64,000 nucleotides of DNA from a virus (lineage: Duplodnaviria > Heunggongvirae > Uroviricota > Caudoviricetes): the IMG/VR virus record IMGVR_UViG_3300045996_002451, positions 147,172 through 211,171 of that record. One strand, 5' to 3'. A model generated the notes under the pieces. That model had not been told where the DNA came from. It saw only the letters and a program-made list of their open reading frames with translations, and made no database searches. This document shows, piece by piece, positions 1,520 to 47,432 of this stretch (the first letter of the stretch is position 1; each line of letters starts with the position of its first letter). Position numbers and translations under genes: made by a program.

Positions 1520-1528
1520 GGGTAACAT
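1520..1528 (+). promoter_or_regulatory. Motif C (GGGTAACAT).
   Basis: CGGGTAACATTCC, 30 nt upstream of the lysin ATG and 12 nt 5' of a motif A variant. Confidence 0.35.
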
Positions 1529-1540
1529 TCCTTACGTCCT

Positions 1541-1554
1541 GTTACACGGGTACC
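1541..1554. promoter_or_regulatory. Motif A variant (GTTACACGGGTACC).
   Basis: One-arm mismatch. 4 nt upstream of the lysin ATG. Confidence 0.4.
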
Positions 1555-1558
1555 CGAT

Positions 1559-2164
1559 ATGTTTGACTTCTTGCGGGCGCTCCGACGCGAACAGTTGCAG
1601 ACGAGTGTCGAACCTTTTTCGCGGGTGGTAGAACGCCTGGCGATGCTGAACCCGCAAGCCGCGGAGTTTCAGCCGACGTCGATCGACACCGGTACCAGCG
1701 AGACTGGTGCTACGTTTGACTCCACGGTAAATATCGGGGGTCCGGTTCCCACTCCGAGTGAGGGAACGGTCCAGATCGCCAGCGTACCGGGAGTCGAAGT
1801 AGTTTCGTGGATGAACGCGAAACAGCGGGTGGTGGACGCGGTGCTTTGGAGTGACGTCCAACGTATGGCCAAGGATCTAGGCTTTGGGATCCGGGTCATC
1901 AGCGGCTGGCGACCCCCGGGGAAAATGGGTCAGCGCGGACTGCACGTGCACAACAAAGCGCTGGACATTCAACCGGCAGGGCCTCGACAGGGATCGGCAC
2001 TGTTCAAGTCGCAAGGTGACCAGATGGCGACCTGGCTACAGCACCGCTCAGGCAGAGGCTACGTCCTGAACAAAACCAGCTACACCGGCAGCTCCTACTA
2101 CAGCATCTTGTGGTGGGTAGCAGATCATTACGATCACCTGCACATTGGGGCGCCTGGAAAGTAG
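1559..2164 (+). CDS. Peptidase M15-like (DD/LD-peptidase, Hedgehog-type) cell-wall hydrolase, probably a tail-associated lysin.
   Basis: The motifs 'ISGWRPPGKMGQRGLHVHNKALDIQP' and 'DHLHIG' match the SxxR...H...G.A.D...H zinc-binding signature of M15 peptidases. The gene lies in the tail module. Confidence 0.6.
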   Translation: MFDFLRALRREQLQTSVEPFSRVVERLAMLNPQAAEFQPTSIDTGTSETGATFDSTVNIGGPVPTPSEGTVQIASVPGVEVVSWMNAKQRVVDAVLWSDVQRMAKDLGFGIRVISGWRPPGKMGQRGLHVHNKALDIQPAGPRQGSALFKSQGDQMATWLQHRSGRGYVLNKTSYTGSSYYSILWWVADHYDHLHIGAPGK

Positions 2165-2175
2165 CAAGGACTAAG

Positions 2176-2742
2176 ATGTCACGGTACGAAGATTTGATGA
2201 CCGGGATCGCGCAGCGTGTCCTGAGTGAAGGCGCGCCGATCCCGAATGTCCAGGGCTACATCCCGAAAGACGGGATCAGCGAAAAAGATTGGACCTGCAC
2301 CGTACGGTATCCCAACCCGAAAGGTGGAATGGAAGCCGGACAGATTGCGGGGGGTGGCAGTTACCTGGAGTCGCAAGGGATCTCCCTCCCGCGCGCGCCA
2401 GGCGGCACCATTGAGGGTGTTCGGCAAAAGGTCAAGGAGCACGACTGCGCGGTACTCCTCGGCTTTCAAGGCAACGACATCGGCAAGCCGCACATCATCC
2501 AGTTGCTGGACATCACGCACGGCGTGGATGGTAAGCAGCAACAAAATACCGCGGAGCGGAGCAACCCCACGGCGGACCAGGCCAAGACTGCGGCCACTCC
2601 GGCAATGGCGGCACCCATTATGGGACCGCCGATCCCCCCGAATCTCGCCAGTAAGTACCCGCCTTCTCCGAGCGCTCAGGCCCACGTCCGCAGTGAGGCC
2701 AAACAGTTCAAAGAGTGGTTCAAGAAAGCGCAAGGTAAATGA
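2176..2742 (+). CDS. Hypothetical baseplate-module protein.
   Basis: ATG at 2176 preceded by AAGGAC. Position is between the lysin and the gp25-like gene. No confident family assignment. Confidence 0.4.
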   Translation: MSRYEDLMTGIAQRVLSEGAPIPNVQGYIPKDGISEKDWTCTVRYPNPKGGMEAGQIAGGGSYLESQGISLPRAPGGTIEGVRQKVKEHDCAVLLGFQGNDIGKPHIIQLLDITHGVDGKQQQNTAERSNPTADQAKTAATPAMAAPIMGPPIPPNLASKYPPSPSAQAHVRSEAKQFKEWFKKAQGK

Positions 2743-3365
2743 TGGGACTGGGAAAATCTTTCCGCGAGCTGATCCTGCGCGTCAAAGGCGAGACCCCGCA
2801 GAAGCGGGCAGAGGCGAAGAACTATCCCTCCGGGTACGAAGTAGGGCTGCGCCATCCGGATACCAGCGCCCACGTGCTGCTGGGCGATAACGGGATGGTG
2901 GACCTCAAAGCCAGCGCCGCACGCCTTCTACTCCAGAAGAGTAACGGCACGGCGTTCCTGGAAGGCTCGGCAGTCTCCTTGACCGGTAAGGACATCCACC
3001 TGCACGCCGATCGACTCTGGGTCCACGGCTGGCAGCAGTTCGATCCCCTCGGCATGTGGCACAGTCCAGTCGCGCCGCCTCCCGGAGACCTGACCTGGAC
3101 GTGGCGCTTTGCGCCCCTGGTCGGCAACAGCGCGGAGTTACTGGCTGCGCTGCTCTCGATGCCGTTTGTGGTGGGTGACCCGGCACAACCGCAGTACACG
3201 CGGCCCGGTCCGGGAGGCCCGGCGCACCCGCCCGGCTCCGGTCAGCACACCGCTTACCTGAGTTCGATGCTTCATCCTCAACCCCTTTTCGGACCCAACC
3301 GGCAGATGGAGATGCTCTTCAAGCATCTGGCGGCGTTGACCAAGGAACTGTCCCATGGCGAGTGA
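2739..3365 (+). CDS. Hypothetical baseplate-module protein, possibly a spike or hub component.
   Basis: ATGA stop/start overlap with the upstream gene. Sits in the position of gpV-like genes in Mu/P2-type baseplate operons. Sequence similarity is weak. Confidence 0.35.
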   Translation: MMGLGKSFRELILRVKGETPQKRAEAKNYPSGYEVGLRHPDTSAHVLLGDNGMVDLKASAARLLLQKSNGTAFLEGSAVSLTGKDIHLHADRLWVHGWQQFDPLGMWHSPVAPPPGDLTWTWRFAPLVGNSAELLAALLSMPFVVGDPAQPQYTRPGPGGPAHPPGSGQHTAYLSSMLHPQPLFGPNRQMEMLFKHLAALTKELSHGE

Positions 3366-3753
3366 ACTGGTGGACCTGTTTAGTGACGATCAGGGCGAGA
3401 TCTTTGTCGGCCACAACGGTGACCTGCAGATCGCCCGCGATGACGAAGTGCTGGTGCAGGAAGTCGTGATGCGTCTGAAGACCACGAAAGGGGACTGGCA
3501 GCTTGTCCCTGAGTGCGGGGCCGACCTGGAGCTGTTGATCGGTGAGCCGCAACTGCCCCAGACCGGGGCCATGATGGAGAACCAGATCTCCGAAGCCCTG
3601 ACCAACGACGGCTTCTTCAGCGGTCGGCTGGTCCGGGTCAAAGCGGTACCCATCAACTGGCAGCAACTAAAGGGTATCGTTGAACTGGAAGGCATCGACA
3701 GTGACTTTGGGGTAGCGATGGACCTCGACCTCAAAGAGGGTGTCTTGGGGTAG
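3355..3753 (+). CDS. Baseplate wedge protein, gp25 / GPW family.
   Basis: 'KGDWQLVPECGADLELLIGE' matches the conserved RxGxxxxxPEFGxxL core of T4 gp25 / Mu gp46. Size is 132 aa. It overlaps the upstream gene. Confidence 0.65.
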   Translation: MASELVDLFSDDQGEIFVGHNGDLQIARDDEVLVQEVVMRLKTTKGDWQLVPECGADLELLIGEPQLPQTGAMMENQISEALTNDGFFSGRLVRVKAVPINWQQLKGIVELEGIDSDFGVAMDLDLKEGVLG

Positions 3754-3754
3754 T

Positions 3755-3770
3755 GTAGGACGCGTCATAC
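3755..3770. promoter_or_regulatory. Motif B near-palindrome (GTAGGACGCGTCATAC).
   Basis: Between the gp25-like gene and the glycosyltransferase gene. Confidence 0.45.
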
Positions 3771-3783
3771 ATGGAGCGAGCGG

Positions 3784-4974
3784 GTGTTGTTAAAGTTTGA
3801 TCAGCCTTACCGGGACCTGCGCGTCCTGGGTCTCATTGCCGACATGGCTGCCTGCGGTTACTACCGCATGGAGTATCCGTTTGAGTTCTTACGCCGGGGT
3901 GGGGCCAAGGCCGACACCACCGGTGCCGTCAATCTCCCCCTGCTGCAGGAGTACGACATCATTGTGGTCCAGCGCAGCTACAGCCCGGAACTGTTCGGGA
4001 TGCTGCAAGAGGCCCGGCGCTTCGGTAAGACCGTCCTGTACGAGGTAGACGATTACCTGCACGGCGTGCACCCGCACAGTCCGGCCTACAAGACGTTCCG
4101 ACCCAACGGGATAAACGTGCACTGGGTCGATCAATGGCTGAAGGGATCAGCAGGTCTCCTGACCAGCACTCCGGAGCTGGCGGGCGCCTACGGGCCGCTG
4201 GTGCCGCGTACGTGGGTGCTGCCGAACAACCTCGACTTCGGGATCCGCAACTGGGATCGACCGGCCAGTCGAGATCCGCGGCTGGAAGGCAAGCTGGTGA
4301 TCGGGTGGGCCGGATCCTCGTTTCACCCGGACGACATGTTGCCGCTTCAAGGAAGCCTGAAGAAGGTTCTGGAAAAGTATGGATCGCGGGTGGTGTTTGC
4401 CATCGCCTCCGGTCCGGCGCAGGTACGGCAGTTCCTGCAGCCGCTGAACCTTCCGTCCGAGCAGGTTGTCATCCTGGACCCCGTCCACTTCTGGGACTAC
4501 CCCCAACTCCTTTCCCAGTTTGATATCGGACTTGCCCCGCTTTCCAATACACTCTTCAACCGGTGCAAGTCCGAGCTGAAGCTGCTGGAATACGGCGCTT
4601 GGGGTATCCCGTATGTAGCCTCCAAGGTTGCGCCGTATAACCGCTTCCATCTGGCTAGCGGCGGACACGGAGGTTACCTGGCGACCAACACCCAGGAATG
4701 GGAAGCCGCGCTGGGTGCCCTCGTAGAGGATCCCAACAACTGGGGTGACCGGCACCTGTTCATCAAGGACTACGTCCGGGATCAGCACGACCTGGCGAAA
4801 GCCGCCTACCTGTGGGCAGGTTCGCTGCGTCAAGCGCGCGATCTGGCGCAGTACCAACCCGAGTTACGGTTGACCCCTGCAACGGCGGGTGCGCGCACCC
4901 CCGGCAGGAATGATCGCTGTCCCTGCGAAAGTGGGAACAAGTACAAGAAATGTTGTAGTCCAGCTTACGGATAG
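3784..4974 (+). CDS. GT-B-fold glycosyltransferase (GT4-like) with a C-terminal SEC-C zinc-binding motif.
   Basis: 'ELKLLEYGAWGIPYVAS' is an E-x7-E-type GT4 motif. The C-terminus 'CPCESGNKYKKCC' matches the SecA C-terminal metal-binding (SEC-C) motif. GTG start. Confidence 0.65.
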   Translation: MLLKFDQPYRDLRVLGLIADMAACGYYRMEYPFEFLRRGGAKADTTGAVNLPLLQEYDIIVVQRSYSPELFGMLQEARRFGKTVLYEVDDYLHGVHPHSPAYKTFRPNGINVHWVDQWLKGSAGLLTSTPELAGAYGPLVPRTWVLPNNLDFGIRNWDRPASRDPRLEGKLVIGWAGSSFHPDDMLPLQGSLKKVLEKYGSRVVFAIASGPAQVRQFLQPLNLPSEQVVILDPVHFWDYPQLLSQFDIGLAPLSNTLFNRCKSELKLLEYGAWGIPYVASKVAPYNRFHLASGGHGGYLATNTQEWEAALGALVEDPNNWGDRHLFIKDYVRDQHDLAKAAYLWAGSLRQARDLAQYQPELRLTPATAGARTPGRNDRCPCESGNKYKKCCSPAYG

Positions 4975-4982
4975 GAGTTGTC

Positions 4983-9875: not shown

Positions 9876-11363
9876 ATGCCTACACCTAACTCAGAACGCG
9901 CTATCTATCGGCCTCAACCCTCCGGGGGCGAGCGTTACTTGCCCGGTTGGCACATTGCTCGCACGGATCCGGACAGCCTGGTTTACCGCCTGGTACACCA
10001 ACTGGTCGATGAGTGTGTCCCGCTCCGAGAAGAGCAGGCGCGCGCGTATCAGATGAACTGGTTGACCACCGCGCCCGTGGATGAGCCGCGAACGCAGTGG
10101 ACGTGCGTCTATCCGTTTGACCCGCAAGATGAACTGACCGTGACGGTGACGACCGCCGCCGATCTCGAGATCGAGGTGCGTGCCGCGCTGAGCGATCACG
10201 ACTTTGTGCGGGCGACCGATCCGGTCTGGAAGCTGGACACCCCGCAAGGGCGCCTGGTTTTTCGTAACCTGGCCACGGTGGAAAAGGAGCTGACCTCCGT
10301 CACCACCAGCTACACCGTAACCGGAGAAGCTTCGGGACTGGTCGCTGACGCTAATCTATACTGGCAGGGACAGACGGATGATCCCTGGCAAGTCCTATCG
10401 GCAGACAGTTCCTTGCGGGACGGGGTGACCTTTACCTTGCCGGTCACCGGCGTCATCTCGGTGCGTTACCAGTCCCAGGCACGCTACGCTGACCTGGTCT
10501 CGGGCACGGTGCTCTTAGAGCGTCGCAGCAGCCGCACGGTGCCGTTGCCGCTTACCGTGGAGCCGCTCCTGAACCTCTTCGATGGCTGGGGGTCGATCCT
10601 CGGGATCCCCCGCCTGCCGGATGAGGACAACGTCGCGTACAAAGCACGGCTGCTCGCGGAAGCGGAAGCGCCGCCTAACTCCACGGAGACAGGGGTGATT
10701 CGGGGCATCGCCTCGCGTCTGGGGTTGCTTTCGCGCACCTACTGGAACGGGATCGACGAACTCGAGTTCTCTGAAGAGGAGGTCACCGCGGTCCACCTGG
10801 TCGGTGTGGACATGTTCTTCGGGGTCACCGAGCAGCTTACGCCGGAGCCGCGGGAAAGCGTCACCGAACCGGTAGACACCTACTACGCGTCCTACACGGA
10901 CTGGCGGGAAGGGTGGTACGTCTATGTCGACGGCGTGCCCGCACAGGGCGTGACCGTTTCGGGTAACGTCGTTACACTAGGGGAAGAGACCAGTGGGGTG
11001 GTGACCGCGGCCTACACCGTCGCGCGGTACCAGTTGGAGCGCGACGCGGAAGATTACATCCTCAGCGTGCAGCCAGGTCAAGGCCTGCCGCCCGGTAACT
11101 ACGTGGTCCTTTACTCCCGCCAGGTCCTGGTCCATGGGCTGGGTGCGGAGACCGTGCAGGATGCGCTGCTCCTGACCGCAGCCGGGCTGCCGAATGAACT
11201 CTTCCTAGAGCTGCACCGTACCCTGGCGAGTGGGAGTACCACGTCGCTGGGAAGGGCGGGTTGGGAAACTGCGTATTGGTTTGCTTCCCCGGAAGAGACG
11301 CCGGGGACTACTCAGGTGGCGTTGCCGTTTGACGCGCACCTGACATTGGGTGATGATGAGTAA
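9876..11363 (+). CDS. Tail fibre protein 2, a paralogue of fibre 1.
   Basis: It shares blocks with fibre 1: 'LNLFDGWGSILGIPRLPDEDNVAYKARLLA', 'REGWYVYVDGVP...VSGNVVTLG' and 'GRAGWETAYWFASPEE'. Confidence 0.5.
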   Translation: MPTPNSERAIYRPQPSGGERYLPGWHIARTDPDSLVYRLVHQLVDECVPLREEQARAYQMNWLTTAPVDEPRTQWTCVYPFDPQDELTVTVTTAADLEIEVRAALSDHDFVRATDPVWKLDTPQGRLVFRNLATVEKELTSVTTSYTVTGEASGLVADANLYWQGQTDDPWQVLSADSSLRDGVTFTLPVTGVISVRYQSQARYADLVSGTVLLERRSSRTVPLPLTVEPLLNLFDGWGSILGIPRLPDEDNVAYKARLLAEAEAPPNSTETGVIRGIASRLGLLSRTYWNGIDELEFSEEEVTAVHLVGVDMFFGVTEQLTPEPRESVTEPVDTYYASYTDWREGWYVYVDGVPAQGVTVSGNVVTLGEETSGVVTAAYTVARYQLERDAEDYILSVQPGQGLPPGNYVVLYSRQVLVHGLGAETVQDALLLTAAGLPNELFLELHRTLASGSTTSLGRAGWETAYWFASPEETPGTTQVALPFDAHLTLGDDE

Positions 11364-14100
11364 CTACGCTTACAACTATAGCTACGGAACTCCCGTACTG
11401 GGTTCGCCTTCCCTAACCGGACCGGTCGCACCTGTGATGGAGCTGCAGGACGGAGAAGACCGCCTGCAGCTTTTTACGTTGCAGGGGGCGGAAAACTTTC
11501 TGCGCGCTTACGCCCAGCTTTCGGTACTGGAACAGGAAAGAAGGGTGACCTATTGGGTGCCACCCGAGCCCCGACCGACCACCCAAGCGTTAGGCGCCTA
11601 CCTCGGTGCGGACGTGCGTTACACGGGTAACGACTACACGCCGTGGATCCTGTCTCGCCCGCCCGATCCGGTATTGACCAAGGCAACTCGCTACGAAAGC
11701 TTCTACCTCCAGAACCACCTGGCGGTAGATGGGCACACCCAGCACTGGTATCCGGAGTATCCAGTACGCGACCTGCAGGAGCAGTTGCTTCGCGGGGTCA
11801 AGGGAACCCGCCCCAACGTACCCCTCCTGTATCTGGGCGGGGCCTTACCTGGAGGCACCGACGTGCCGCTGCATACCAACTGGTACCAGTATGCGGGGCA
11901 CTCCATGTATTGGAAGCTGCGTCCGGTGGTCGACCATCTTTCCGAAGCGACCGGTAGATTACTACGACAGATCGATCTCCAGCCCTGGAATGAGATGGAG
12001 CTGGAACCGCTCCTGTTTGACCCACTGGGTGAGTGGCAGATCCCGGAACTGATGGAGTGCTTGGCCTCGACCTCCACCGTTATCGGTCGACCGGGCCTGA
12101 CCACTCTCCTGGCTAGCATCCTCGGCAAACCGCTGCACCTTTACACGCCGGACAAGCTACGTATCGATTGGAACTTAGGTCCCCGGAAAGCGACGCAGTG
12201 GACGATTCCCTGGTCGAGTCTCGCTAAGTCGGACATTGACTTCTCATTCTACAACAACGTCTGGGGCGAGTTCCCGAAGCTGGTGGAGCCGAAGAACCGT
12301 CCCCTGCGCGTGGGCATCCTGACCCCGGCCATGCTGATTGGCGGCGTAGAGCAGTGGATCCTCTCCCTGGTCCAACACACAGATAGGCAGCGTCTCTCCT
12401 GGGAAGGCGTCGCCGTTCTTTATCCAGAAAACCTGGACACCCGGATGTCGGACCGCATCGAGCCGTACTGCCCGGTGGGTGTAGGCCTTGGTGAGGTTGC
12501 CCGGCTGTCCCGAAGTTGCGATGTCCTCCTGGCCTGGGGACTTCCGGAATGGTGGAACTTCCTACCTCCGGACCGTAAATGCCAGGTGGTCTACGTGAAC
12601 CACGGCGTGGGTGACTGGTCCACGGCTTCCTGTAAAGGCGCAAGCCATGCGAACGGCCTGGTAGCGGTCTCGACCGCATCCAAGGACTGCTTCCCGGTCA
12701 GCCACCGGTCCCGCGTCCAGGTGATCCCCAACGGAACCGACCGCAAGCGGCTGGAAACCAGCCAGACCAAGGAGTCGCAGAAGTGGGCCTGGGGGATCGC
12801 TCCGGATAAGAAGGTCCTGGGGTTCCTGGGACGCTTTGCGTATGAGAAGAACCCGGACCTCCTGGTCAGCGCTGTGGCCGCGCTGCCGGAAGACTGGGTC
12901 GGGGTGATGGTCGGCAGCGGCAGCCCGGAAGCCGAGTCCGGACTCAAGAGTCTGGCGGAGGCGTGCTGCCCGGGACGCATCTTCTTCCCCGGACCTACTG
13001 AGGACGTGGGCGGGGCGCTTACCGGGTTCGACGTCCTGCTCGTGCCTTCCCATGAAGAAGGCTTCTGTTACGTGGTGATCGAAGCCTGGTTGAACGGCAC
13101 GCCGGTGGTGGCGACTCCCACGGGGGTGGCTGCAGAAGAGGTCGGGCTGGTGGCGTACATTCAAGCCGACGCACTCGGTTATGAAGTAGCGGAAATCGTA
13201 GAGCAGACTTACTACGATAGCTGGCTGCCTGTCCTGCTGAAGGAAGGGGTGAGCACGGCTACTGAGAAATACAGTCAGACGGCGTTTGGTGCAAACTGGA
13301 CGAACTATCTTTGCAGCTTCCCAAAAATCGAGCGCCCGCAGGAGCAACTCTGGGATGTGCGTCAGTTGCCGTTGGAGTTGATTCCGGGTGTCCAGGTAGT
13401 CCTGGCCGCACACAACGCCGGTCCCTGGCTGCAGCGCTGCCTGGACTCCATCGAGGTCGCGATGGAAGGGCTGCACTGGGGACTCTTCCTGGCGGATGAC
13501 GCGAGCACCGACGACACCCTGGCGATCGCCAAGGCGCACCGCACCAGTGCGGACTACGTGCGCATCCAAAGCTTTGCTAAAGCCCGCACCACGGGGGAAG
13601 CCAAGAACCGCGCCCTCGCGCTGGGTGCCGACCTGCGGGAAACCCTTCCGGCAATCGTGCACATGGATGCCGATGACGTGATGATGCCAGGCCGCGTGCG
13701 CTTCTTGCTGGCGCAGGCAGTGCGCACCGGGAAGCCGTTGGTGCACGGCACGGTGCGTTTCCGTTCCGTACCGCCCCAAGGCGTGGCCCAGTTACTGGAA
13801 GTAGCCGGGGGTAACCGGGAACAGTACGAGGCAGCGAACTTAACGCCGTGTATTACCCTGCACCACGCGTGCCTGATCCCCGAAGACCACAAGCTCTTTT
13901 GTGAAGACCTGCGCGCCATCGAGGACGGCGAACTGTGGACCAGGCTCCGCCTCTCCGGCATCCAGAGTGTTCCTTGTCCGGGACCACTCTCCCATGATTA
14001 CTACCCGCACTGGAACAGCACGGCGTATAACCCGGAAACGGAAATAAACATCGAGCGCTACTATCGTCGACGCGCACTACTAAAGCAAGAGACCCTTTAG
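11350..14100 (+). CDS. Tri-domain glycosyltransferase: GT9-like, then GT4, then GT2.
   Basis: The N-terminal region 'VIGRPGLTTLLASILGKPLHLY' resembles the heptosyltransferase (GT9) C-half. The middle 'EGFCYVVIEAWLNGTPVVAT' is a GT4 E-x7-E motif. The C-terminal 'LADDASTDDT' and 'HMDADDVMMP' are GT2 DxD motifs. The start overlaps the fibre 2 stop within 'ATGATGATGAGTAA'. Confidence 0.7.
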   Translation: MMMSNYAYNYSYGTPVLGSPSLTGPVAPVMELQDGEDRLQLFTLQGAENFLRAYAQLSVLEQERRVTYWVPPEPRPTTQALGAYLGADVRYTGNDYTPWILSRPPDPVLTKATRYESFYLQNHLAVDGHTQHWYPEYPVRDLQEQLLRGVKGTRPNVPLLYLGGALPGGTDVPLHTNWYQYAGHSMYWKLRPVVDHLSEATGRLLRQIDLQPWNEMELEPLLFDPLGEWQIPELMECLASTSTVIGRPGLTTLLASILGKPLHLYTPDKLRIDWNLGPRKATQWTIPWSSLAKSDIDFSFYNNVWGEFPKLVEPKNRPLRVGILTPAMLIGGVEQWILSLVQHTDRQRLSWEGVAVLYPENLDTRMSDRIEPYCPVGVGLGEVARLSRSCDVLLAWGLPEWWNFLPPDRKCQVVYVNHGVGDWSTASCKGASHANGLVAVSTASKDCFPVSHRSRVQVIPNGTDRKRLETSQTKESQKWAWGIAPDKKVLGFLGRFAYEKNPDLLVSAVAALPEDWVGVMVGSGSPEAESGLKSLAEACCPGRIFFPGPTEDVGGALTGFDVLLVPSHEEGFCYVVIEAWLNGTPVVATPTGVAAEEVGLVAYIQADALGYEVAEIVEQTYYDSWLPVLLKEGVSTATEKYSQTAFGANWTNYLCSFPKIERPQEQLWDVRQLPLELIPGVQVVLAAHNAGPWLQRCLDSIEVAMEGLHWGLFLADDASTDDTLAIAKAHRTSADYVRIQSFAKARTTGEAKNRALALGADLRETLPAIVHMDADDVMMPGRVRFLLAQAVRTGKPLVHGTVRFRSVPPQGVAQLLEVAGGNREQYEAANLTPCITLHHACLIPEDHKLFCEDLRAIEDGELWTRLRLSGIQSVPCPGPLSHDYYPHWNSTAYNPETEINIERYYRRRALLKQETL

Positions 14101-14103
14101 GTG

Positions 14104-14112
14104 GGGTAACAT
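14104..14112 (+). promoter_or_regulatory. Motif C (GGGTAACAT), 2 nt before the GT2 ATG.
   Basis: GGGGTAACATTTATG. Confidence 0.4.
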
Positions 14113-31562: not shown

Positions 31563-31571
31563 GGGTAACAT
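31563..31571 (+). promoter_or_regulatory. Motif C (GGGTAACAT) followed by a hairpin.
   Basis: TGGGTAACATATAGTG, then an 11-bp-stem hairpin at 31573-31603. Confidence 0.4.
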
Positions 31572-31625
31572 ATAGTGCCTACTGAATCGCTAAGTAGGCA
31601 CTACGGATACTTAAAGGAACACTCA

Positions 31626-32555
31626 ATGGAACAGACAAAAGGGCGCTGGGTTCAGATCGGTCGAGCTGATTCGCGCGACATCCTCCTGGACATCACCGAC
31701 CCGGATGCGGACGGCGCGTTTTGGGATCGCTCGGAGGAGCGGCGCAAAAAGCAGAACAACGAACCGTTCAAGCGCGAACCGCGTTATGCGTTGACCCTGG
31801 TCAAGTACGACAAGTCCAAACCTGCGGGCAGCCGCGGTGAGGAGACGACGCACTGGCTGGAGGAGAACGCGTTGCTGCTCCTCATGCATGACATCCTCTC
31901 CCTTCGAAAAGGCGCAGAGAAAGAAGGCACCAACGGACGCAAGTTCCGAGAGCCGATCTGCCGCGACTACAAGGGAAGTCCGGAAGTCATCGAAGAGGGT
32001 AAACCCAAGGTCATGGTTTCCCGCAGTCTGACCGTCAAGTACAACGACGGACTCACCATGGGACCGGTCTACGAGTTCAACTTCATGAAGTGTGAAGGCG
32101 TAGCCAATGATCAGGGTGCCGTGGAACCCAAGAAGGGACCCGACGGCAAACCCGCCAAGGTCTTCTACGAAGGCGTGATCCGCGTTGGTACGGTCGGCAA
32201 CAAGCAGGGTGACTTTGTCCGCGAGATGGCGATGGGTGTCATCGAGTACATCCGGGCCAAGAAGTCGGCACAGCTCGCCCAGTTCCGCAACCAGTCAACC
32301 AAGTCGACTCCGTCTTACAGAGAGCGGCGACAAAACAACTACGAGCGTCCGGCGCCTCAGGAAGCGCCAGAACGCAACGTAGCTCCGCCCATCGGTCGCC
32401 AGGCTCCGGTAACGAGCCACGGTAACGGACGCCCACCGGTGGCAGAAACCGCTCCGGTACTCGCCGGTCCGGCTACCATCGACGATGGACAGTTTGACGA
32501 TCCGTTTTCGGAAGCCAACCTCGTGCCGCCGCCTCCGCCTAGCCGCGGCGGCTAG
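31626..32555 (+). CDS. Hypothetical protein with a disordered Pro/Gln-rich linker and an acidic 'DDGQFDDPF' C-terminal region (SSB-like tail). Function uncertain.
   Basis: ATG at 31626 with 'AAAGGAAC' upstream. The alternative GTG at 31575 lies inside a hairpin. The C-terminal architecture resembles SSB acidic tips. Confidence 0.35.
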   Translation: MEQTKGRWVQIGRADSRDILLDITDPDADGAFWDRSEERRKKQNNEPFKREPRYALTLVKYDKSKPAGSRGEETTHWLEENALLLLMHDILSLRKGAEKEGTNGRKFREPICRDYKGSPEVIEEGKPKVMVSRSLTVKYNDGLTMGPVYEFNFMKCEGVANDQGAVEPKKGPDGKPAKVFYEGVIRVGTVGNKQGDFVREMAMGVIEYIRAKKSAQLAQFRNQSTKSTPSYRERRQNNYERPAPQEAPERNVAPPIGRQAPVTSHGNGRPPVAETAPVLAGPATIDDGQFDDPFSEANLVPPPPPSRGG

Positions 32556-32561
32556 TCACGG

Positions 32562-32577
32562 TATGACGCGTCATACA
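32562..32577. promoter_or_regulatory. Motif B perfect palindrome (GTATGACGCGTCATAC).
   Basis: Immediately 5' of the 32580 terminator. Confidence 0.5.
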
Positions 32578-32579
32578 GC

Positions 32580-32607
32580 CCGAGAGATCGATCTCTCGGG
32601 CTTTTTC
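32580..32607 (+). terminator. Rho-independent terminator.
   Basis: Palindrome CCGAGAGATCGATCTCTCGG followed by GCTTTTTCTTG. Confidence 0.6.
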
Positions 32608-32613: not shown

Positions 32614-32622
32614 GGGTAACAT
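32614..32622 (+). promoter_or_regulatory. Motif C (GGGTAACAT) just after a terminator.
   Basis: CGGGTAACATC, ~95 nt upstream of the 32718 ATG. Confidence 0.35.
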
Positions 32623-37424: not shown

Positions 37425-37881
37425 AACTACCTTTGCCCGCAAAGCCGCGGCTGAACTAAAGGTACCGCTGGTTTCTTACCGGGACTTGTTTCAAGCGTTG
37501 ACCGGAGGCATCGTGGTCGACGAGTTCAATGTCAGACTGAACCAGGTGGTGCTGGATACAATTGGTTGGTACTTGTTAAAGGGGAAAACCGTCATCTATG
37601 ATGCGGGGAACATGACACGTGCCTCCCGGCAACCCCTGATGGAGATGGCGCAGGTGTTGGAGATCCCGGTGCACGGGATCTGGTGCGTGTGTGATGCTGC
37701 CACCCAGAAGGAACGTTTGCTTAGCGCAGGGTTCCCCCTGGAGCAGGCAGAGTTGATTAACCGTGTCTGGGAAGCGCCGAACATGGACGAGGGGTACGAA
37801 GAGATCGTCGTCCAGTTCACCGATGCTTCCGCGTTGTCCGAAGTAAAGTTGGTACATGATGGAGACCTCGGAAAAGCCTAA
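37369..37881 (+). CDS. P-loop kinase (AAA_33 / polynucleotide-kinase-like), a possible (d)NMP kinase.
   Basis: Walker A 'LMMGRPKHGKTTFA'. Small size. Sits in the nucleotide-metabolism neighbourhood. Confidence 0.5.
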   Translation: MMSKSNSLVLMMGRPKHGKTTFARKAAAELKVPLVSYRDLFQALTGGIVVDEFNVRLNQVVLDTIGWYLLKGKTVIYDAGNMTRASRQPLMEMAQVLEIPVHGIWCVCDAATQKERLLSAGFPLEQAELINRVWEAPNMDEGYEEIVVQFTDASALSEVKLVHDGDLGKA

Positions 37882-38980: not shown

Positions 38981-38996
38981 GTATGACGCGTCATAC
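38981..38996. promoter_or_regulatory. Motif B perfect palindrome (GTATGACGCGTCATAC).
   Basis: Immediately 3' of the 38920 terminator. Confidence 0.5.
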
Positions 38997-39019
38997 AATA
39001 TTTTGAACCGGAGATCTCG

Positions 39020-39935: not shown

Positions 39936-40495
39936 GCCAGATCAAGACCAAACGCGAAGCGATCGACCTGGCACAGCGCGGACGTTTCGGCAATACGATG
40001 CCGGTGTGGAAAAGCCTGGAAGAGGTAGAGGCTAGCGGTTACACGGGTAACGTGATGGTCCGCTACGCCGAGCCGGGCAGCGCCTGGAATATACCCAGTG
40101 CCGATCTCGCCACGGCAGGTTATTGGGTCCACGCTTTCTGTCGCCAAGGGGCGCTGCTCGAAAAGTTTCACTTCACCGTCGGCGGAAGCTGCGGTAGCCG
40201 CCTGATCAACGGCGAGGTGATGCAAAACTACTTAGGCTTCCAACTGCACTACAACGACACGCAGCCGACGATGGTCATGCGGGAGTCGTTGAAGCAGGAA
40301 AACGGTGTCAAGAACGCCTCCGGCCTCCAGGCTAAGCTGATCCTCCAGCACTACATGGACCCCTCCAGCTACGCCGACCTGGAGGCGATCTGGGACGAAT
40401 GGCCGGATGCCGTGGTGGAGTTTACGGTGTTCAGTCAGGATGTGGGGAACATCCCTCGTCGCAACACCATCTTCTGGGAAGTACGCAGCTATTGA
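39932..40495 (+). CDS. Hypothetical protein.
   Basis: 187-aa ORF. Contains an in-coding motif A copy at 40038. Confidence 0.4.
   Translation: MSQIKTKREAIDLAQRGRFGNTMPVWKSLEEVEASGYTGNVMVRYAEPGSAWNIPSADLATAGYWVHAFCRQGALLEKFHFTVGGSCGSRLINGEVMQNYLGFQLHYNDTQPTMVMRESLKQENGVKNASGLQAKLILQHYMDPSSYADLEAIWDEWPDAVVEFTVFSQDVGNIPRRNTIFWEVRSY
40038..40051. promoter_or_regulatory. Motif A (GTTACACGGGTAAC) inside coding sequence.
   Basis: Lies within the 39932-40495 ORF. A possible internal regulatory site. Confidence 0.3.
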
Positions 40496-40733
40496 AACCC
40501 CTAGCACAAGACGTCCGGATCGATTACACCAACTGGCGCAACGAACGCTCCAGTCGGATCATCTCTCCGATCGAGTTGTTCTTCGGCTCCAACCTCTACC
40601 ATCCAGAAGCTCAGTGGCTTCTCGTGGCCCTGGATGTAGAGAAGAACGCCACACGCACCTTTGCGTTGAAGAACATCCATCATTGGCAGCCCGCTCGCTC
40701 AACCCACATGCTCTCGGAGCAGAAAGAAACCCC

Positions 40734-41303
40734 ATGAGTTTTACTAAGCAGCAGATTACCGGTTTCCTGAAGCGCACCTACGAGTTGGCCAGTCAGAGCC
40801 GCGACACCAGCAACCAGAACGGCGCCATCATCGTGGACTCCTATTCAGGGAAGATCCTGAGCGAAGGGTTCAATGACTTCCCGACCGGCTGCCAGGATCT
40901 TCCGGAGCGTCACGAGCGCCCCCTCAAGTACTCCTACTTCCGCCATGCCGAGCGACACGCCTGCTACAACGCGGCCAAGCGCGGCAACAAGACCGACGGC
41001 ATGACGATGATCTGTCCCTGGTTCGCCTGCGACAGTTGCGCCATTGCCATCATCGAGTCCGGCGTACGCCGTGTCATCGGCCATCAGCAGCGTATGGCAG
41101 AGACGCCGGAGCGCTGGAAAGAGAATGTGGATCTCGCCCTGGAGATGCTGGCCGAAGCGGGGGTGGACTACACCTTTTTCGACGGCCCGGTGAAGGCTGA
41201 CCCCATCATCGTCAACAGCGTGCTCTGGTCTCCGAGCGGTAAGATCGTGGTACCCGTTGCTGCCCCGGTGGTACCGGTAGAGGTGCAGCATGTGGCGGAA
41301 TGA
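40734..41303 (+). CDS. dCMP / cytidine-deoxycytidylate deaminase.
   Basis: 'FRHAERHACYNA' (H-A-E) and 'CPWFACDSC' (PCxxC) zinc-binding motifs. ATG at 40734. Confidence 0.7.
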   Translation: MSFTKQQITGFLKRTYELASQSRDTSNQNGAIIVDSYSGKILSEGFNDFPTGCQDLPERHERPLKYSYFRHAERHACYNAAKRGNKTDGMTMICPWFACDSCAIAIIESGVRRVIGHQQRMAETPERWKENVDLALEMLAEAGVDYTFFDGPVKADPIIVNSVLWSPSGKIVVPVAAPVVPVEVQHVAE

Positions 41304-42786: not shown

Positions 42787-42972
42787 ATGCCTAGTTGGGG
42801 AGAGGTCACGCAGGTCAAACAATGCGCGTGCTGTAAGCAGGTGGACGACCCACTCTACTTCCAGGAGTTCAAGGATCAACACACCATGAGTGATTACCTG
42901 AACAAGGAGAACTGGGTCTGCCGCGGCTGCCTGAACACCGGGAAGCCTCAAGCAGCCAAGGGTAACATCTGA
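42787..42972 (+). CDS. Small zinc-ribbon protein.
   Basis: 'CACCKQ ... CRGC' pairs. 61 aa. Confidence 0.35.
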   Translation: MPSWGEVTQVKQCACCKQVDDPLYFQEFKDQHTMSDYLNKENWVCRGCLNTGKPQAAKGNI

Positions 42973-43191
42973 GGGGATCACGTCCCCTTTTCCACCGCTG
43001 CTCTCCCCTCAGGACCACCGCCATGTCCGACCAGAACGAAGTGATCTTTAGTGCCGACTTCAAAGGTCTCCCGCTCAAAAACAGCCAGTACGGCGGGCCG
43101 AAGCCGCCGAAAGGACCCAGTACCTCCAAAGGCTCCAAGCCGCCGAAAGGCAAAGGCTCCGGCAAGTCCGGCAAGAAGTAGGAGTACGGGG

Positions 43192-43557
43192 ATGCCACGC
43201 CAGCCCAAGCCGCCTCGACGCCGGACCGTTATCTACGGTCTCGTGGATCCACGCGATGGCTTGATCTACTACGTTGGCAAGACCACGAACCCGAGCCGTC
43301 GGGTTGAGGGTCACCTGAAGGAGACCGTCAACAAGAACCGGGTCGCGTGGATCAAGGATCTGGTAGCACACAAGTTGCTGCCGATCCTGATCATCCTGGA
43401 AACGGTCCCCAAGGACAAGACCTGGGAAGATACGGAAATCTATTGGATCGCCAAGGGAAGGGCGCTGGGATGGCCGCTGCTTAACGTCAGCGACGGCGGC
43501 AACGAACCGCCTCGCTACACCAACGTGCCTACCCGAGGAACACGCAGAGGATACTGA
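43192..43557 (+). CDS. GIY-YIG endonuclease, a free-standing homing-endonuclease-like gene.
   Basis: 'VIYGLVDPRDGLIYYVGKTTNPSRRVEGH' is the GIY-x10-YIG motif with a conserved R and H. ATG at 43192 with GGAG upstream. Preceded by a 52-aa Lys/Pro/Gly-rich ORF (43022-43180). Confidence 0.6.
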   Translation: MPRQPKPPRRRTVIYGLVDPRDGLIYYVGKTTNPSRRVEGHLKETVNKNRVAWIKDLVAHKLLPILIILETVPKDKTWEDTEIYWIAKGRALGWPLLNVSDGGNEPPRYTNVPTRGTRRGY

Positions 43558-44004: not shown

Positions 44005-44121
44005 GTAATGAACCTGGAAGAGCGCATCCTACTCGTGATCAGTCTGGTGCTGGTAGGAGCGCTCGCCCTTTTTTCCGCGTTGATTCAGTTGAGTCTGGTT
44101 AGTCGTTAACGGGGTAGAATA

Positions 44122-44409: not shown

Positions 44410-44415
44410 AACCTC

Positions 44416-45018
44416 GTGGCTAACAGCTTTGAGAACGAGATGAGCGAGAGCGCGCAGCATCTGGGCATCTGTTACCAGAAGCTGGCAATCCCCATGCGGC
44501 TCTGCCACATGACCAAGCGCTTGATCAAGCTAAAAACCAACCCTTACGACGCCTTTGCCATCCATGAAGGTCGGCACTACGCGCTGGAGTTGAAAAGCTT
44601 GGACGAGCACGGCAGCTTTCCACTGGTCAACATCGAACCTCATCAGATCGAAGGTCTCCAGTCCGCGGCGATCTCCGGGGCCAAAGCCTTCTTACTGGTT
44701 AACATGAGAAGGCAGAAGGGCAAGACAGCGAACCGCGCGTGGTCGCTTCCTATTGAGTACTGGGATGAACTCCTGGCTTTACTGGAAACGGCCAAGCGGA
44801 AGAGTATTCCCTACCGCTACTTTACGGAAGAGCTGCTCTTTACTGAGTTGCCTCGCCGCCGAGTAGAGAACGCGTTTGGTGCAGAGGAGCTGGTCTGGGA
44901 CCTCCGGGTTCCGCTGGGTATCGTAACTGAGCCGGTCAAGCTGCCTGCGTTAGATGATGAGCCTCCTTATGATCCGGAGAACCCTTGGGCGTTGCCTCCG
45001 GTTGAAGTACGCGTGTAG
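44416..45018 (+). CDS. Putative PD-(D/E)xK nuclease (VRR-NUC / RecU-like).
   Basis: 'YDAFAIHEGRHYALELKS' fits a D ... E-x-K catalytic core. Tentative. Confidence 0.3.
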   Translation: MANSFENEMSESAQHLGICYQKLAIPMRLCHMTKRLIKLKTNPYDAFAIHEGRHYALELKSLDEHGSFPLVNIEPHQIEGLQSAAISGAKAFLLVNMRRQKGKTANRAWSLPIEYWDELLALLETAKRKSIPYRYFTEELLFTELPRRRVENAFGAEELVWDLRVPLGIVTEPVKLPALDDEPPYDPENPWALPPVEVRV

Positions 45019-45024
45019 CACGCG

Positions 45025-45040
45025 TCATACATAGAGTCCG
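45025..45040. promoter_or_regulatory. Motif B variant (GTAGCACGCGTCATAC).
   Basis: Upstream of the GroES-like gene. Confidence 0.4.
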
Positions 45041-45061
45041 TATCCCGAGTTAAGAGAGTTT

Positions 45062-45604: not shown

Positions 45605-45609
45605 GCCCT

Positions 45610-45960: not shown

Positions 45961-45962
45961 CG

Positions 45963-46136: not shown

Positions 46137-46614
46137 GAACACTGGCGTAGAAGGTACCGAGATCAACTTTGAGGTGATCGTGCTGCGCTTCCTGCAGGCG
46201 TGTCAGCAGATCCGGGAGATGGGCACGTACATTCATCACGTCCGCATCCATCCCGACCTGAAGCAAGGGTTTCAAGCAGAGTTGGGACGCGTGCCGGAGG
46301 AGGTCCTACCCTCCGCGATGATTGCCAAGATTCAGATCGAAGAAGATCCCTCTGAAAAAGAGATCCGGATCATCACGGGTAAGGACATCGAACGCATGTA
46401 CCTGGAGCGGCACTTCGGTCCGCGCGAGGAAGGCGGCACGGGAGTCCTGCCCAATCTGATGAACTACCTACAGAAGAACAAGATCCCCGTTACGGTAGAT
46501 CTCCCCTTCCTACGTACCCTCTTTCTTTTGGAGGCCGTGGAACGGATCGACAGTCGGGTAATCACCGCTTCTGCAGGAGCGCTTCCCAACCTCGCCGATT
46601 TGCGTCGGCGATAA
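46126..46614 (+). CDS. Hypothetical protein.
   Basis: ATG at 46126. 162 aa. Followed by a terminator. Confidence 0.35.
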   Translation: MSVENTGVEGTEINFEVIVLRFLQACQQIREMGTYIHHVRIHPDLKQGFQAELGRVPEEVLPSAMIAKIQIEEDPSEKEIRIITGKDIERMYLERHFGPREEGGTGVLPNLMNYLQKNKIPVTVDLPFLRTLFLLEAVERIDSRVITASAGALPNLADLRRR

Positions 46615-46626
46615 CCGACGGTCTTT

Positions 46627-46657
46627 AAGGTCACCTGGAAACGGGTGACCTTTTTTA
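46627..46657 (+). terminator. Rho-independent terminator upstream of the sigma factor gene.
   Basis: AAGGTCACC-tggaaacg-GGTGACCTT followed by TTTTTT. Confidence 0.6.
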
Positions 46658-46662
46658 ACGCT

Positions 46663-47289
46663 ATGGAACCTAAAAGCTGTGCCGATCAGTCCAGCGCTTT
46701 AACCGAGAGTATCGCGCGTTACCAAGCTGGAGACTCGCAGGCGGCTGCCGAGCTGCTCACGTCCTGCGAAGCTTATCTGAACCGCTGGTTCCGACTCCTG
46801 ATCCAGGGAACGTTCACCAAGAACGACACGGAGATCCGCCAGTTTCTAGGGCTGCTTAGCAGTGATCTGGAGCCCGCCCTGGCTGCCAAGAACCTGGCCC
46901 GCCAGTTGCGCTCCTATTCCTCAGCCGATCTACGGCAGGAGGTACGCGCGCTCTTTCTCCAGCTTGCTCTGGAACATGGTGAGATCTACGCGCACTTTCC
47001 GCACCAGCTCAAGGGACGCATCCACGTCCTCCTCGGCGATCCCCTCAACTATCAGGACGAGCTAGGGAACAGCACACCCTTCGGCGCACTGGACGAAGCT
47101 TGGGTACAGGGACAGTGTGGAAACGGGTTCTCGCAGCTTACAGAGCAGCAGAGACGTATTGTGCGCTGCTGCTTCTGGCACGCCTACCCGATTCCCCACA
47201 CGGCGCACATCTTAAAGCTCTCGGTGGAAGAGATCCAGCAAGAACTGGCCACTATCCGGAACGCGTTAAAAGACCTAAACCGACGTTAA
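46663..47289 (+). CDS. Sigma-70-family (ECF-like) sigma factor.
   Basis: Region-2-like 'SIARYQAGDSQAAAELL ... YLNRWFRLL' and region-4 HTH 'LTEQQRRIVRCCFWHAYPIPHTAHILKLSVEEIQQELATIRNALKDL'. The ATG at 46663 follows a terminator. Confidence 0.55.
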   Translation: MEPKSCADQSSALTESIARYQAGDSQAAAELLTSCEAYLNRWFRLLIQGTFTKNDTEIRQFLGLLSSDLEPALAAKNLARQLRSYSSADLRQEVRALFLQLALEHGEIYAHFPHQLKGRIHVLLGDPLNYQDELGNSTPFGALDEAWVQGQCGNGFSQLTEQQRRIVRCCFWHAYPIPHTAHILKLSVEEIQQELATIRNALKDLNRR

Positions 47290-47306
47290 ACAGCTTAAAG
47301 AAACTC

Positions 47307-47343
47307 AGCTAGTGGTGGCCCTAGGGCCACCACTAGCTTTTTG
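47307..47343 (+). terminator. Rho-independent terminator.
   Basis: A 32-bp perfect palindrome AGCTAGTGGTGGCCCTAGGGCCACCACTAGCT followed by TTTTT. Confidence 0.65.
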
Positions 47344-47356
47344 TTACACGGGTAAT
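47343..47356. promoter_or_regulatory. Motif A variant (GTTACACGGGTAAT).
   Basis: Immediately after the 47307 terminator, upstream of the nuclease gene. Confidence 0.4.
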
Positions 47357-47423
47357 TGCGTGAGTCAAGCGAGGGCATCTTCGCTACATTAAAGTAGATG
47401 TAGAGCGCTTGCACTCCCCCAAG

Positions 47424-47432
47424 GGGTAACAT
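47424..47432 (+). promoter_or_regulatory. Motif C (GGGTAACAT) overlapping the TTG at 47432.
   Basis: GGGGTAACATTGAG. Confidence 0.4.

What the first reader, a model, noticed from the sequence alone, without database searches (positions are those of the whole stretch)
1520..47432. Heptamer GGGTAAC(AT) half-site hugging start codons (motif C)
GGGTAACAT occurs at 1520, 14104, 31563, 32614 and 47424, and as GGGGAACAT at 29530. In several cases it sits 0-3 nt before an ATG, GTG or TTG (GGGGTAACATTTATG, GGGTAACATATAGTG, GGGTAACATTG). The same GGGTAAC heptamer is the right arm of motif A, where the 14-mer equals rc(GTGTAAC)+GGGTAAC. So A sites are inverted pairs and C sites are single copies of one recognition element. 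Its position at the start codon suggests leaderless-mRNA promoters or a translation-level regulator rather than a Shine-Dalgarno sequence.
Basis: seen in the sequence. Interest (0 to 1): 0.6.

Follow-up and report, generated by a model that had tools for sequence, protein, structure and literature searches.

The report
Promoter -10 box, not start-codon signal
GGGTAACAT is most likely the -10 box (TAACAT preceded by GGG) of ordinary sigma-70-type promoters in an uncultured jumbo phage, and its apparent contact with start codons comes mostly from reading ORFs at their longest.

Summary
The motif is real. GGGTAACAT occurs six times, the five listed plus 42960. All six are on the + strand, and five lie between + strand genes, against 0.3-0.5 expected.

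Seven related metagenomic phage loci carry the equivalent sites in the two orthologous intergenic regions. They read GGGTAACAT, GGGTATAAT, GGGTAAAAT, GGGTAATAT, GGGTATTAT, TGGTATAAT, GGTTAACAT and GGGTAAACT. Positions 1-5 and 8-9 are conserved and 6-7 vary. That is the T-A-n-n-A-T pattern of a sigma-70 -10 hexamer with G at -14, not the pattern of the motif A arm. Three orthologues also have a -35-like hexamer exactly 17 bp upstream.

The start-codon contact mostly fails. GTG 31575 and TTG 47432 are upstream ORF extensions; the better-supported starts are ATG 31626 and ATG 47471. Only ATG 14115 is a real start 2 nt after the motif. Distances to the starts are 2, 30, 38, 54, 54 and 95 nt, so none fits a leaderless mRNA.

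Motif A is a separate palindromic element that is independent of orientation and evolves on its own (GATACACCTGTATC in one relative).

One point remains open: all six sites are identical and share GGGTAAC with motif A. Overall this is an ordinary promoter class in a new phage clade.

The parts
1520..1528 (+). C site 1: GGG + TAACAT, 30 nt before ATG 1559. A motif-A variant (1541-1554) lies in the predicted leader.
14104..14112 (+). C site 2, atypical. It sits in a 14-nt gap between stop TAG 14098-14100 and the genuine ATG 14115. GGGGT lies 7 nt before the ATG, so it probably serves as a Shine-Dalgarno sequence. If it is also a promoter, the transcript would start inside the gene.
31563..31571 (+). 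C site 3: the best-supported promoter -10 box. It is the only long conserved block in the spacer shared with L103. Orthologues read GGGTATAAT, GGGTAAAAT, GGGTAATAT, GGGTATTAT and TGGTATAAT.
31573..31603 (+). An 11-bp stem-loop that starts 2 nt after the -10 box (z = -4.8). Hairpins of unrelated sequence sit at the same place in L103, L109 and L113 (z = -5.1, -3.9, -5.3). Probably a 5'-terminal mRNA hairpin.
31626..32555 (+). Gene downstream of site 3, with corrected start ATG 31626 (SD AAAGGAA). GTG 31575 is an ORF extension.
32578..32606 (+). Intrinsic-terminator-like hairpin GCCCGAGAGATC/GATCTCTCGGGC plus a T tract, immediately upstream of C site 4.
32614..32622 (+). C site 4, following the terminator and 95 nt before ATG 32718 (Met-Ala-Ser conserved with L103). 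Orthologues read GGGTAACAT (L103), GGTTAACAT (L105), GGGTAAACT (L108) and GGGTAATCT (L112).
42960..42968 (+). It lies in the last codons (AKGNI*) of the small zinc-ribbon-like ORF 42787-42972 and directly before a hairpin plus T tract. Its function is uncertain; it may be the one chance copy.
47307..47342 (+). Terminator-like hairpin plus T tract after the sigma-like gene. It is followed by the motif-A variant GTTACACGGGTAAT (47343-47356).
47424..47432 (+). C site 6, 38 nt before ATG 47471 (SD GAGGA) of a Cas4-like exonuclease gene. TTG 47432 is an in-frame ORF extension.
44112..44120 (+). Variant GGGTAGAAT in a 12-nt gap between a 33-codon membrane-peptide ORF (44008-44109) and ATG 44122. GGGGT lies 6 nt before the ATG, so it is probably a Shine-Dalgarno sequence.
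46645..47289 (+). 214-aa sigma-70-family protein, a candidate phage sigma factor and a possible reader of one of the motif classes.

Best explanation
GGGTAACAT is the -10 region of sigma-70-family promoters of the extended -10 type, which work largely without a -35 element. TAACAT supplies T-12, A-11, A-8 and T-7, and GGG occupies -15 to -13, giving the G at -14.

Inferred mechanism: a holoenzyme binds it and starts transcription about 6-8 nt downstream. The primary sigma of the unknown host is the most likely reader, and the phage's own sigma-like protein is the alternative. The resulting mRNAs have ordinary leaders of about 20-90 nt with their own Shine-Dalgarno sequences. At site 31563 the mRNA begins with a stable 5' hairpin.

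The sites mark operon starts within the + strand gene block, twice directly after terminators.

The copy at 14104 and the variant at 44112 sit in 12-14 nt gaps. They more probably act through their GGGGT as ribosome-binding sites.

What is shown: enrichment, strand and intergenic bias, orthologous conservation with a -10-type substitution pattern, -35-like hexamers at 17 bp in three relatives, and the corrected start at 31626. The corrected start at 47471 rests on its SD and is an inference.

What is inferred: promoter activity itself, the transcription start positions, and which sigma reads the motif.
For: Enrichment: 6 copies, all on the + strand, against 0.28-0.47 expected. Five of the six lie in intergenic DNA.

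Orthologous spacers: L103 (62-66% amino-acid identity) keeps the exact 9-mer at both orthologous spacers, where it is the only long conserved block. More distant relatives have GGGTATAAT, GGGTAAAAT, GGGTAATAT, GGGTATTAT, TGGTATAAT, GGTTAACAT, GGGTAAACT and GGGTAATCT at the same places.

Column counts over 26 sites: G/G/G at -15/-14/-13 in 20/24/24, T-12 in 24, A-11 in 24, A-8 in 21 and T-7 in 25. The two middle positions are free.

-35-like hexamers at exactly 17 bp: L105 TGGACA-17-TATAAT, L108 TGGACG-17-TAAAAT, L103 TTGCCA-17-TAACAT.

Strand and location: GGTA[AT][ACT][AC]T in the window plus 7 relatives gives 21 sense-strand intergenic hits against 1 antisense, and 22 against 22 in coding DNA.

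Distance to starts: in relatives the motif lies 18-165 nt before called starts, with one unconserved exception at 3 nt (L109 9339).

Context: terminator followed by motif at 32614 and 47424. Conserved-position hairpins directly downstream in four lineages.
Against: There is no transcript data, so promoter activity and start sites are inferred.

The window sites have no recognisable -35 element, and a standard sigma-70 scan finds nothing enriched.

The extension is GGG, not the canonical TGn.

Site 14104 cannot serve the gene it abuts: the ATG is 2 nt after the hexamer.

Site 42960 is inside an ORF and directly before a terminator-like hairpin.

The stems at 31573 and in L103 begin 2 nt after the hexamer, upstream of a canonical +1.

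The pattern used was derived by eye from some of the same spacers, so that count is partly circular.

All six window sites are identical at the two positions that vary freely in relatives, and this makes them share GGGTAAC with motif A. A plain host -10 box does not explain that.
Confidence: 0.7

Rival explanations
1. Half-site model. GGGTAAC is one recognition element for a phage DNA-binding protein that binds motif A as a dimer and C sites as single copies. It could, for example, be a regulator that occludes or activates the C promoters.
For: The 7-nt identity between C and the right arm of A holds in the window and in L103. All six window C sites are identical at positions 6-7, which vary freely in relatives. 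A and C co-occur in two spacers, 1503-1558 and 47290-47431. After removing A and C, 14 other GGGTAAC copies remain against 6.6 expected in total.
Against: Orthologous C sites conserve positions 1-5 and 8-9 and vary at 6-7, the opposite of what an arm (GTAAC) would show. All 6 C sites end in AT and none of the A sites does. C is strictly co-oriented with genes, while A occurs in both orientations. In L110 the A motif is GATACACCTGTATC while the -10-like sites are GGTAATAT. In L112 the A arms are GTAAC while the -10-like sites are TGGTATAAT and GGGTAATCT. No remnant of a left arm lies upstream of any C site.
Confidence: 0.12
2. The motif acts on mRNA at translation initiation. It would be either a Shine-Dalgarno-like GGGGT/GGGT element or the binding site of a translational regulator next to the start codon.
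For: At 14104, GGGGT lies 7 nt before the genuine ATG 14115 in a 14-nt intercistronic gap. At 44112, GGGGT lies 6 nt before ATG 44122. GGGGU can pair with the anti-SD through 5 bp including one G-U (own reasoning). GTAAC lies 1-4 nt before three real starts (14115, 25328, 30035) against 0.42 expected.
Against: Four of six C sites are 30-95 nt from the best start, and those genes have their own SD. Orthologous copies are 18-165 nt upstream, apart from one unconserved copy in L109. The conserved AT at positions 8-9 has no role in an SD. The start-adjacent GTAAC cases are mostly motif A sites in very short gaps, where any intergenic element must touch the start.
Confidence: 0.1
3. Leaderless-mRNA promoters: transcription starts at the A, G or T of the adjacent start codon.
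For: A start-type trinucleotide follows within 0-3 nt at 3 of 6 sites.
Against: That frequency is not above chance (p = 0.07). Two of the three are not the supported starts. The hexamer-to-start distance is 2 nt at 14115, too short for a sigma-70-type discriminator (own knowledge), and 30-95 nt elsewhere. A TTG or GTG start is a poor leaderless initiator (own knowledge).
Confidence: 0.03
4. Chance or compositional repeat with no function.
For: The raw p of 1e-5 does not survive correction for about 43,000 9-mers. One copy (42960) is inside a coding region.
Against: The exact 9-mer is kept in both orthologous spacers of L103, and the -10-like counterpart is kept in six further relatives. The strand ratio in intergenic DNA is 21:1.
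Confidence: 0.03

Closest known systems
Extended -10 promoters without a -35 element, such as the middle and late promoters of Thermus phage P23-45 read by host sigma-A holoenzyme (PMC3950348)
   Same: A -10 hexamer with an immediately upstream G-containing extension. No discernible -35 element at most sites. Used by a phage for non-early genes. Works like a sigma region 2/3 contact that does not need sigma region 4.
   Different: The extension here is GGG (G at -15 in 20 of 26 sites) rather than TG or TGTG. The host and the sigma are unknown. Nothing resembling the P23-45 regulators gp39 and gp76 was recognised in the window (no dedicated search was made), and there are no transcript data.
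Phage T4 late promoters (TATAAATA, read by the phage sigma gp55; own knowledge)
   Same: A -10-only promoter class upstream of structural genes in a large virulent phage. A phage-encoded sigma-family protein is present here too (46645-47289).
   Different: The window's sigma-like protein carries a region 4, unlike gp55. Three orthologous sites have TTGACA-like -35 hexamers at 17 bp, which points to a primary sigma.
Late promoters of jumbo phage AR9, read by its non-virion RNA polymerase: AACA-(6N)-T-A/G (PMC5312081)
   Same: A short, -35-less motif containing AACA, upstream of late genes of a jumbo phage.
   Different: None of the six window sites has T-A/G six nt after AACA (read). Relatives replace AACA by ATAA, AAAA or AATA. 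No RNA polymerase beta-like genes were seen in the window.
Promoter-early stem-loop cassettes (PeSL) of T4-type phages (own knowledge)
   Same: An intergenic promoter immediately followed by a stem-loop, as at 31563 and its orthologues.
   Different: A significant hairpin follows only 1-2 of the six window sites. There is no evidence of mobility or recombination at these sites.

Membership tests
sigma-70-type -10 promoter element | A hexamer with T-12, A-11 and T-7 conserved and the middle positions tolerant | tested here: met
   All six window sites read TAACAT. Over 26 sites in the window plus 7 relatives, T-12 is present in 24, A-11 in 24, A-8 in 21 and T-7 in 25, and positions -10 and -9 vary.
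sigma-70-type -10 promoter element | Intergenic, upstream of a gene and co-oriented with it | tested here: met
   21 sense-strand against 1 antisense intergenic hits, and 22 against 22 in coding DNA. The pattern was partly derived from the same spacers.
sigma-70-type -10 promoter element | A primary transcript 5' end about 6-8 nt downstream | not testable with these tools
   No transcriptome is available for this uncultured phage.
extended -10 class (TGn) | T-15 and G-14 immediately upstream of the hexamer | tested here: inconclusive
   G-14 is present in 24 of 26 sites, but -15 is G in 20 and T in 1 of the 26 as aligned. Read in register, the canonical TGG or TGn extension occurs only in L112 and L113 (TGGTATAAT, TGGTATATA, TGGCTATAAT).
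extended -10 class (TGn) | -35 element absent or dispensable | tested here: met
   No column upstream of the motif is conserved across the 26 sites. TTGACA-like hexamers occur at 17 bp in only three orthologues.
leaderless-mRNA promoter | The -10 hexamer ends about 5-9 nt before the first base of the start codon | tested here: not met
   The distances are 2, 30, 38, 54, 54 and 95 nt.
Shine-Dalgarno sequence | Anti-SD complementarity 4-10 nt before a genuine start | tested here: inconclusive
   Met at 14104 (GGGGT, 7 nt) and at the variant 44112 (6 nt). Not met at 1520, 31563, 32614 and 42960. At 47424 it holds only for the doubtful TTG start.
half-site of the motif A palindrome | The conserved positions in orthologues coincide with the arm (GTAAC), and A and C change in parallel between lineages | tested here: not met
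   The arm-completing bases (AC) are the variable ones. In L110, A is GATACACCTGTATC and C is GGTAATAT. In L112, the A arms are GTAAC and C is GGTATAAT or GGTAATCT.
AR9-type late promoter read by the phage's non-virion RNA polymerase | AACA, six nucleotides, then T followed by A or G at +1 | tested here: not met
   0 of 6 sites fit (sequences; consensus from PMC5312081).
ECF-sigma promoter with GGGTAAC as the -35 box | An invariant AAC, with a CGT-type -10 element 16-17 nt downstream | tested here: not met
   No common element lies at a fixed distance downstream (read). AAC is lost in orthologous sites such as GGGTATAAT and GGGTAATAT.

The most novel reading that the evidence does not exclude
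In this lineage (the window phage and L103), GGGTAAC would be a unit read by a phage factor at two kinds of site: as an inverted pair in the 14-mer found in very short intercistronic gaps, and as a single copy overlapping the -10 box of the C promoters. One protein would then couple promoter activity to the palindromic sites. It could be a repressor or anti-activator that shuts these promoters, or the phage sigma-like protein itself. That would explain why all six promoters carry the same TAACAT while relatives use any TAnnAT.
Probability: 0.15. Interest if true: 0.55.

Novelty: new member of a known kind. Interest (0 to 1): 0.25.

Why it matters
The result gives a first, testable promoter model, GGG-TAnnAT without a -35 element, for an uncultured clade of jumbo phages (contigs of 211-263 kb). 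This clade has no close relative among sequenced phages.

It corrects two gene starts.

It separates three repeated intergenic elements that a sequence-only reading had merged or linked. These are the directional -10 box (C), the orientation-independent 14-mer palindrome (A) and the ACGCGTCATACA palindrome (B).

As a discovery it is modest, because the element behaves like a textbook promoter. The unresolved identity of the six sites and their overlap with motif A is the only part a specialist might find surprising.

Tried and rejected
- Megablast of 49 kb of the window against 50,697 phage records found no match.
- An exact scan of IMG/VR for the 14-mer returned only single chance hits.
- The search for related loci in viral contigs and metagenome contigs found no relatives. 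Relatives had to be reached through protein homologues and their contigs.
- The exact-product look-up of a window protein failed, so the rest of the 211-kb contig could not be read.
- Homologues of the 916-aa glycosyltransferase gave no usable relative, so site 14104 could not be tested by conservation. Sites 1520, 42960 and 47424 also lack orthologous data.
- A standard sigma-70 scan showed no enrichment.
- Maximal-order Markov k-mer statistics were uninformative.
- No tRNA genes were found, and no Rfam family matched.
- A single-sequence AlphaFold model of the sigma-like protein was too poor to use (pLDDT 46).
- A hairpin after the motif is not a general feature. It is significant only at 31563 and weakly at 42960.
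- GGGTAAC as an ECF-type -35 box, and the AR9 AACA-N6-TA/G model, were considered and rejected on spacing and on the sequences in relatives.
- Pfam scans of 20 small ORFs for a DNA-binding protein that might read motifs A or B found nothing.

Full report
**Context**

The window has about 60% G+C and no nucleotide match in 50,697 phage records. One of its proteins is 100% identical to a protein on a 211,171-bp JGI contig. PHROG hits are to virion, baseplate and tail proteins and to glycosyltransferases. The window is therefore part of an uncultured jumbo phage.

Genes run on the + strand from 1 to about 48.6 kb and on the - strand from about 49 to 64 kb. By my own ORF-based gene calls, only about 4-5% of the window is intergenic.

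**The observation**

GGGTAACAT occurs six times: the five listed sites and 42960. All six are on the + strand. Expected counts are 0.28 and 0.47 under a 3rd-order Markov model.

The raw p is 1e-5, which would not survive correction for all 9-mers. But five copies lie between + strand genes. The dinucleotide AT follows 6 of the 20 GGGTAAC copies that are not part of the exact motif A, and it follows none of the A sites.

GGGGAACAT at 29530 is one of four such variants. The other three lie inside genes.

The shared heptamer is confirmed. GTTACACGGGTAAC occurs 10 times exactly and 4 times as a variant, on both strands and mostly in short gaps.

**Relatives**

Collection scans found nothing. Protein homologues led to contigs from seven related phages, at 43-66% amino-acid identity and 46-69% G+C: L103/L104, L105-L107, L108, L109, L110/L111, L112 and L113.

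The spacer after the conserved 353-aa gene holds window site 31563. The sequences at that position are:

| Locus | Sequence |
|---|---|
| L103 | GGGTAACATGTAG |
| L105 | GGGTATAAT |
| L108 | GGGTAAAAT |
| L109 | GGGTAATAT |
| L113 | GGGTATTAT |
| L112 | TGGTATAAT |

The next spacer holds window site 32614. There L103 has GGGTAACAT, L105 GGTTAACAT, L108 GGGTAAACT and L112 GGGTAATCT.

In the window/L103 alignment of the first spacer, the motif is the only long conserved block.

Over 26 aligned sites, GGG, T, A, A and T are nearly invariant, while the two bases between TA and AT vary. This is the signature of a sigma-70 -10 hexamer (T-12, A-11, A-8, T-7) with G at -14.

Three orthologues also carry a -35-like hexamer exactly 17 bp upstream: TGGACA in L105, TGGACG in L108 and TTGCCA in L103. 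The window sites have none.

The relaxed pattern GGTA[AT][ACT][AC]T gives 21 sense-strand intergenic hits against 1 antisense, and 22 against 22 in coding DNA. The pattern was partly derived from these spacers, so the strand asymmetry is the informative part.

**Start codons**

After 31563 the supported start is ATG 31626. It has an SD AAAGGAA, and orthologues start at the equivalent Met. GTG 31575 only extends the ORF.

After 47424 the likely start is ATG 47471 with SD GAGGA, in frame with TTG 47432. This rests on the SD alone.

After 32614 the start is ATG 32718, with Met-Ala-Ser shared with L103. After 1520 it is ATG 1559.

Site 42960 lies in the last codons of the small ORF 42787-42972 and precedes a hairpin plus T tract.

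Only ATG 14115 is a genuine start 2 nt after the motif: the Pfam GT2 profile begins at residue 4.

A start-type triplet within 0-3 nt is expected at 18% of positions, so 3 of 6 gives p = 0.07.

The distances of 2, 30, 38, 54, 54 and 95 nt exclude leaderless transcripts. In relatives the motif lies 18-165 nt before called starts. The one exception is L109 9339, 3 nt before a pipeline-called GTG, and it is absent from the close relative L113.

**Architecture**

Sites 32614 and 47424 follow terminator-like hairpins with T tracts.

Site 31563 is followed 2 nt later by an 11-bp stem (z = -4.8). Hairpins of unrelated sequence occupy the same place in L103, L109 and L113 (z = -5.1, -3.9, -5.3). This fits a 5'-terminal mRNA stem-loop, although the stems begin slightly upstream of a canonical +1.

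The copy at 14104 and the variant GGGTAGAAT at 44112 sit in 12-14 nt gaps with GGGGT 6-7 nt before the ATG. They probably act as ribosome-binding sites.

**Relation to motif A**

A occurs in both orientations upstream of + strand genes. It never ends in AT. Its arms co-vary between lineages:

| Locus | Motif A form | Copies |
|---|---|---|
| window | GTTACACGGGTAAC | 10 exact, 4 variants |
| L110 | GATACACCTGTATC | 6, both orientations (one with centre AGGA) |
| L108 | GTTAC-N4-GTAAC | 3 |
| L112 | GTTAC/GGTAC-N4-GTAAC/GTACC | 3, one of them a perfect GTTAC/GTAAC pair |
| L103 | GATACACGGGTAAC | 2 |

In L110 and L112 the -10-like sites do not follow the A arm. C is therefore not a half-site of A across the clade.

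Two things remain unexplained. The six window promoters are identical at the two free positions, and that identity creates the 7-nt overlap with A.

Real start-codon proximity belongs to A and to GTAAC in very short gaps: 25312 at 2 nt, 30020 at 1 nt, 1541 at 4 nt, and L103, L105 and L112 at 2-3 nt.

**Which polymerase**

No RNA polymerase gene was seen in the window.

ORF 46645-47289 is a sigma-70-family protein. Its own hits are below threshold. However, 21 of 35 homologues hit Sigma70_r4 and 12 hit Sigma70_ECF, and a profile of the family finds sigma F, FliA and ECF sigmas in the PDB.

The TTGACA-like -35 hexamers and the TATAAT consensus in relatives favour a primary host sigma. The phage sigma remains possible.

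The AR9 late-promoter rule AACA-N6-T(A/G) (PMC5312081) and an ECF-type -35 reading both fail. The closest described analogue is the extended -10, -35-less promoter class of Thermus phage P23-45 (PMC3950348).

**Verdict**

The repeat is real. The start-codon, leaderless and half-site readings are not. This is an ordinary promoter class in a novel phage clade.

Noticed in passing
window 32561-32576, about 3758-3772, about 38984-39000 and about 45019-45032; L103 about 15143-15158; L105, L108 and L112 at the orthologous place: Motif B is a second strongly enriched element, ACGCGTCATACA (p about 1e-13), part of the palindrome GTATGACGCGTCATAC. Three copies lie 13-35 nt before starts (3784, 39020, 45062). 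One lies between a stop codon and a terminator, and that position is conserved in relatives as GTATTACGCGTAATAC or GGATACTACGCGTAGTATCC.
   Followed up: partly
window 1541, 5554, 11618, 14716, 20519, 25312, 30020, 33718, 40038, 43569, 47343, 50843, 59825; L110 1362, 8352, 11067, 12201, 15258, 20160: Motif A is a clade-wide 14-bp palindrome with lineage-specific, co-varying arms and a fixed asymmetric centre (ACGG here, ACCT in L110). It is independent of orientation. It often fills very short gaps 1-7 nt before ATG codons that lack a canonical SD. The perfect-palindrome copy GTTACACGTGTAAC is 12/14 identical to the ParB parS consensus (own knowledge). No ParB was seen in the window.
   Followed up: partly
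window 46645-47289 (+): A 214-aa diverged sigma-70-family protein (regions 2 and 4, closest to ECF, FliA and sigma F). It is the last gene of an operon that starts at a motif B site and ends at a terminator just upstream of a motif A variant and C site 47424.
   Followed up: yes
window, C-termini of the - strand genes 54510-55298, 55616-56014, 61804-62220, 62521-62802, 62799-63134, 63140-63421, 63421-63696 and 63699-63905: Eight otherwise unrelated small proteins end in the same peptide, R-[VIL]-Y-[DS]-F-[EDG]-[ED], within 0-8 residues of the stop. Two more have YDF near the N-terminus. It looks like a shared docking or targeting tail.
   Followed up: no
window 34911-35531, 37369-37881, 40407-41303, 52858-54510, 57809-59383, 3784-4974, 11350-14100, 14115-14714: There is a dense set of nucleotide-metabolism and sugar-transfer genes: a dCTP deaminase-like protein, a P-loop kinase, dCMP deaminase, CTP synthase, a 524-aa ThyX-like protein and three glycosyltransferases. 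Relatives add PfkB-family kinases and DNA methyltransferase-family domains (Dam, MT-A70). This suggests a modified DNA base.
   Followed up: no
window 44008-44109 (+): An unannotated 33-codon ORF encodes a hydrophobic peptide (MNLEERILLVISLVLVGALALFSALIQLSLVSR). It lies in what first looked like a 117-nt spacer.
   Followed up: no
window 43051-43557 (+) and 44416-45018 (+): A GIY-YIG domain ORF and a RecU-like resolvase lie among small genes. Relatives carry GIY-YIG/NUMOD3 and Endonuclease_7 genes at different places in the same structural block, which suggests mobile homing endonucleases.
   Followed up: no
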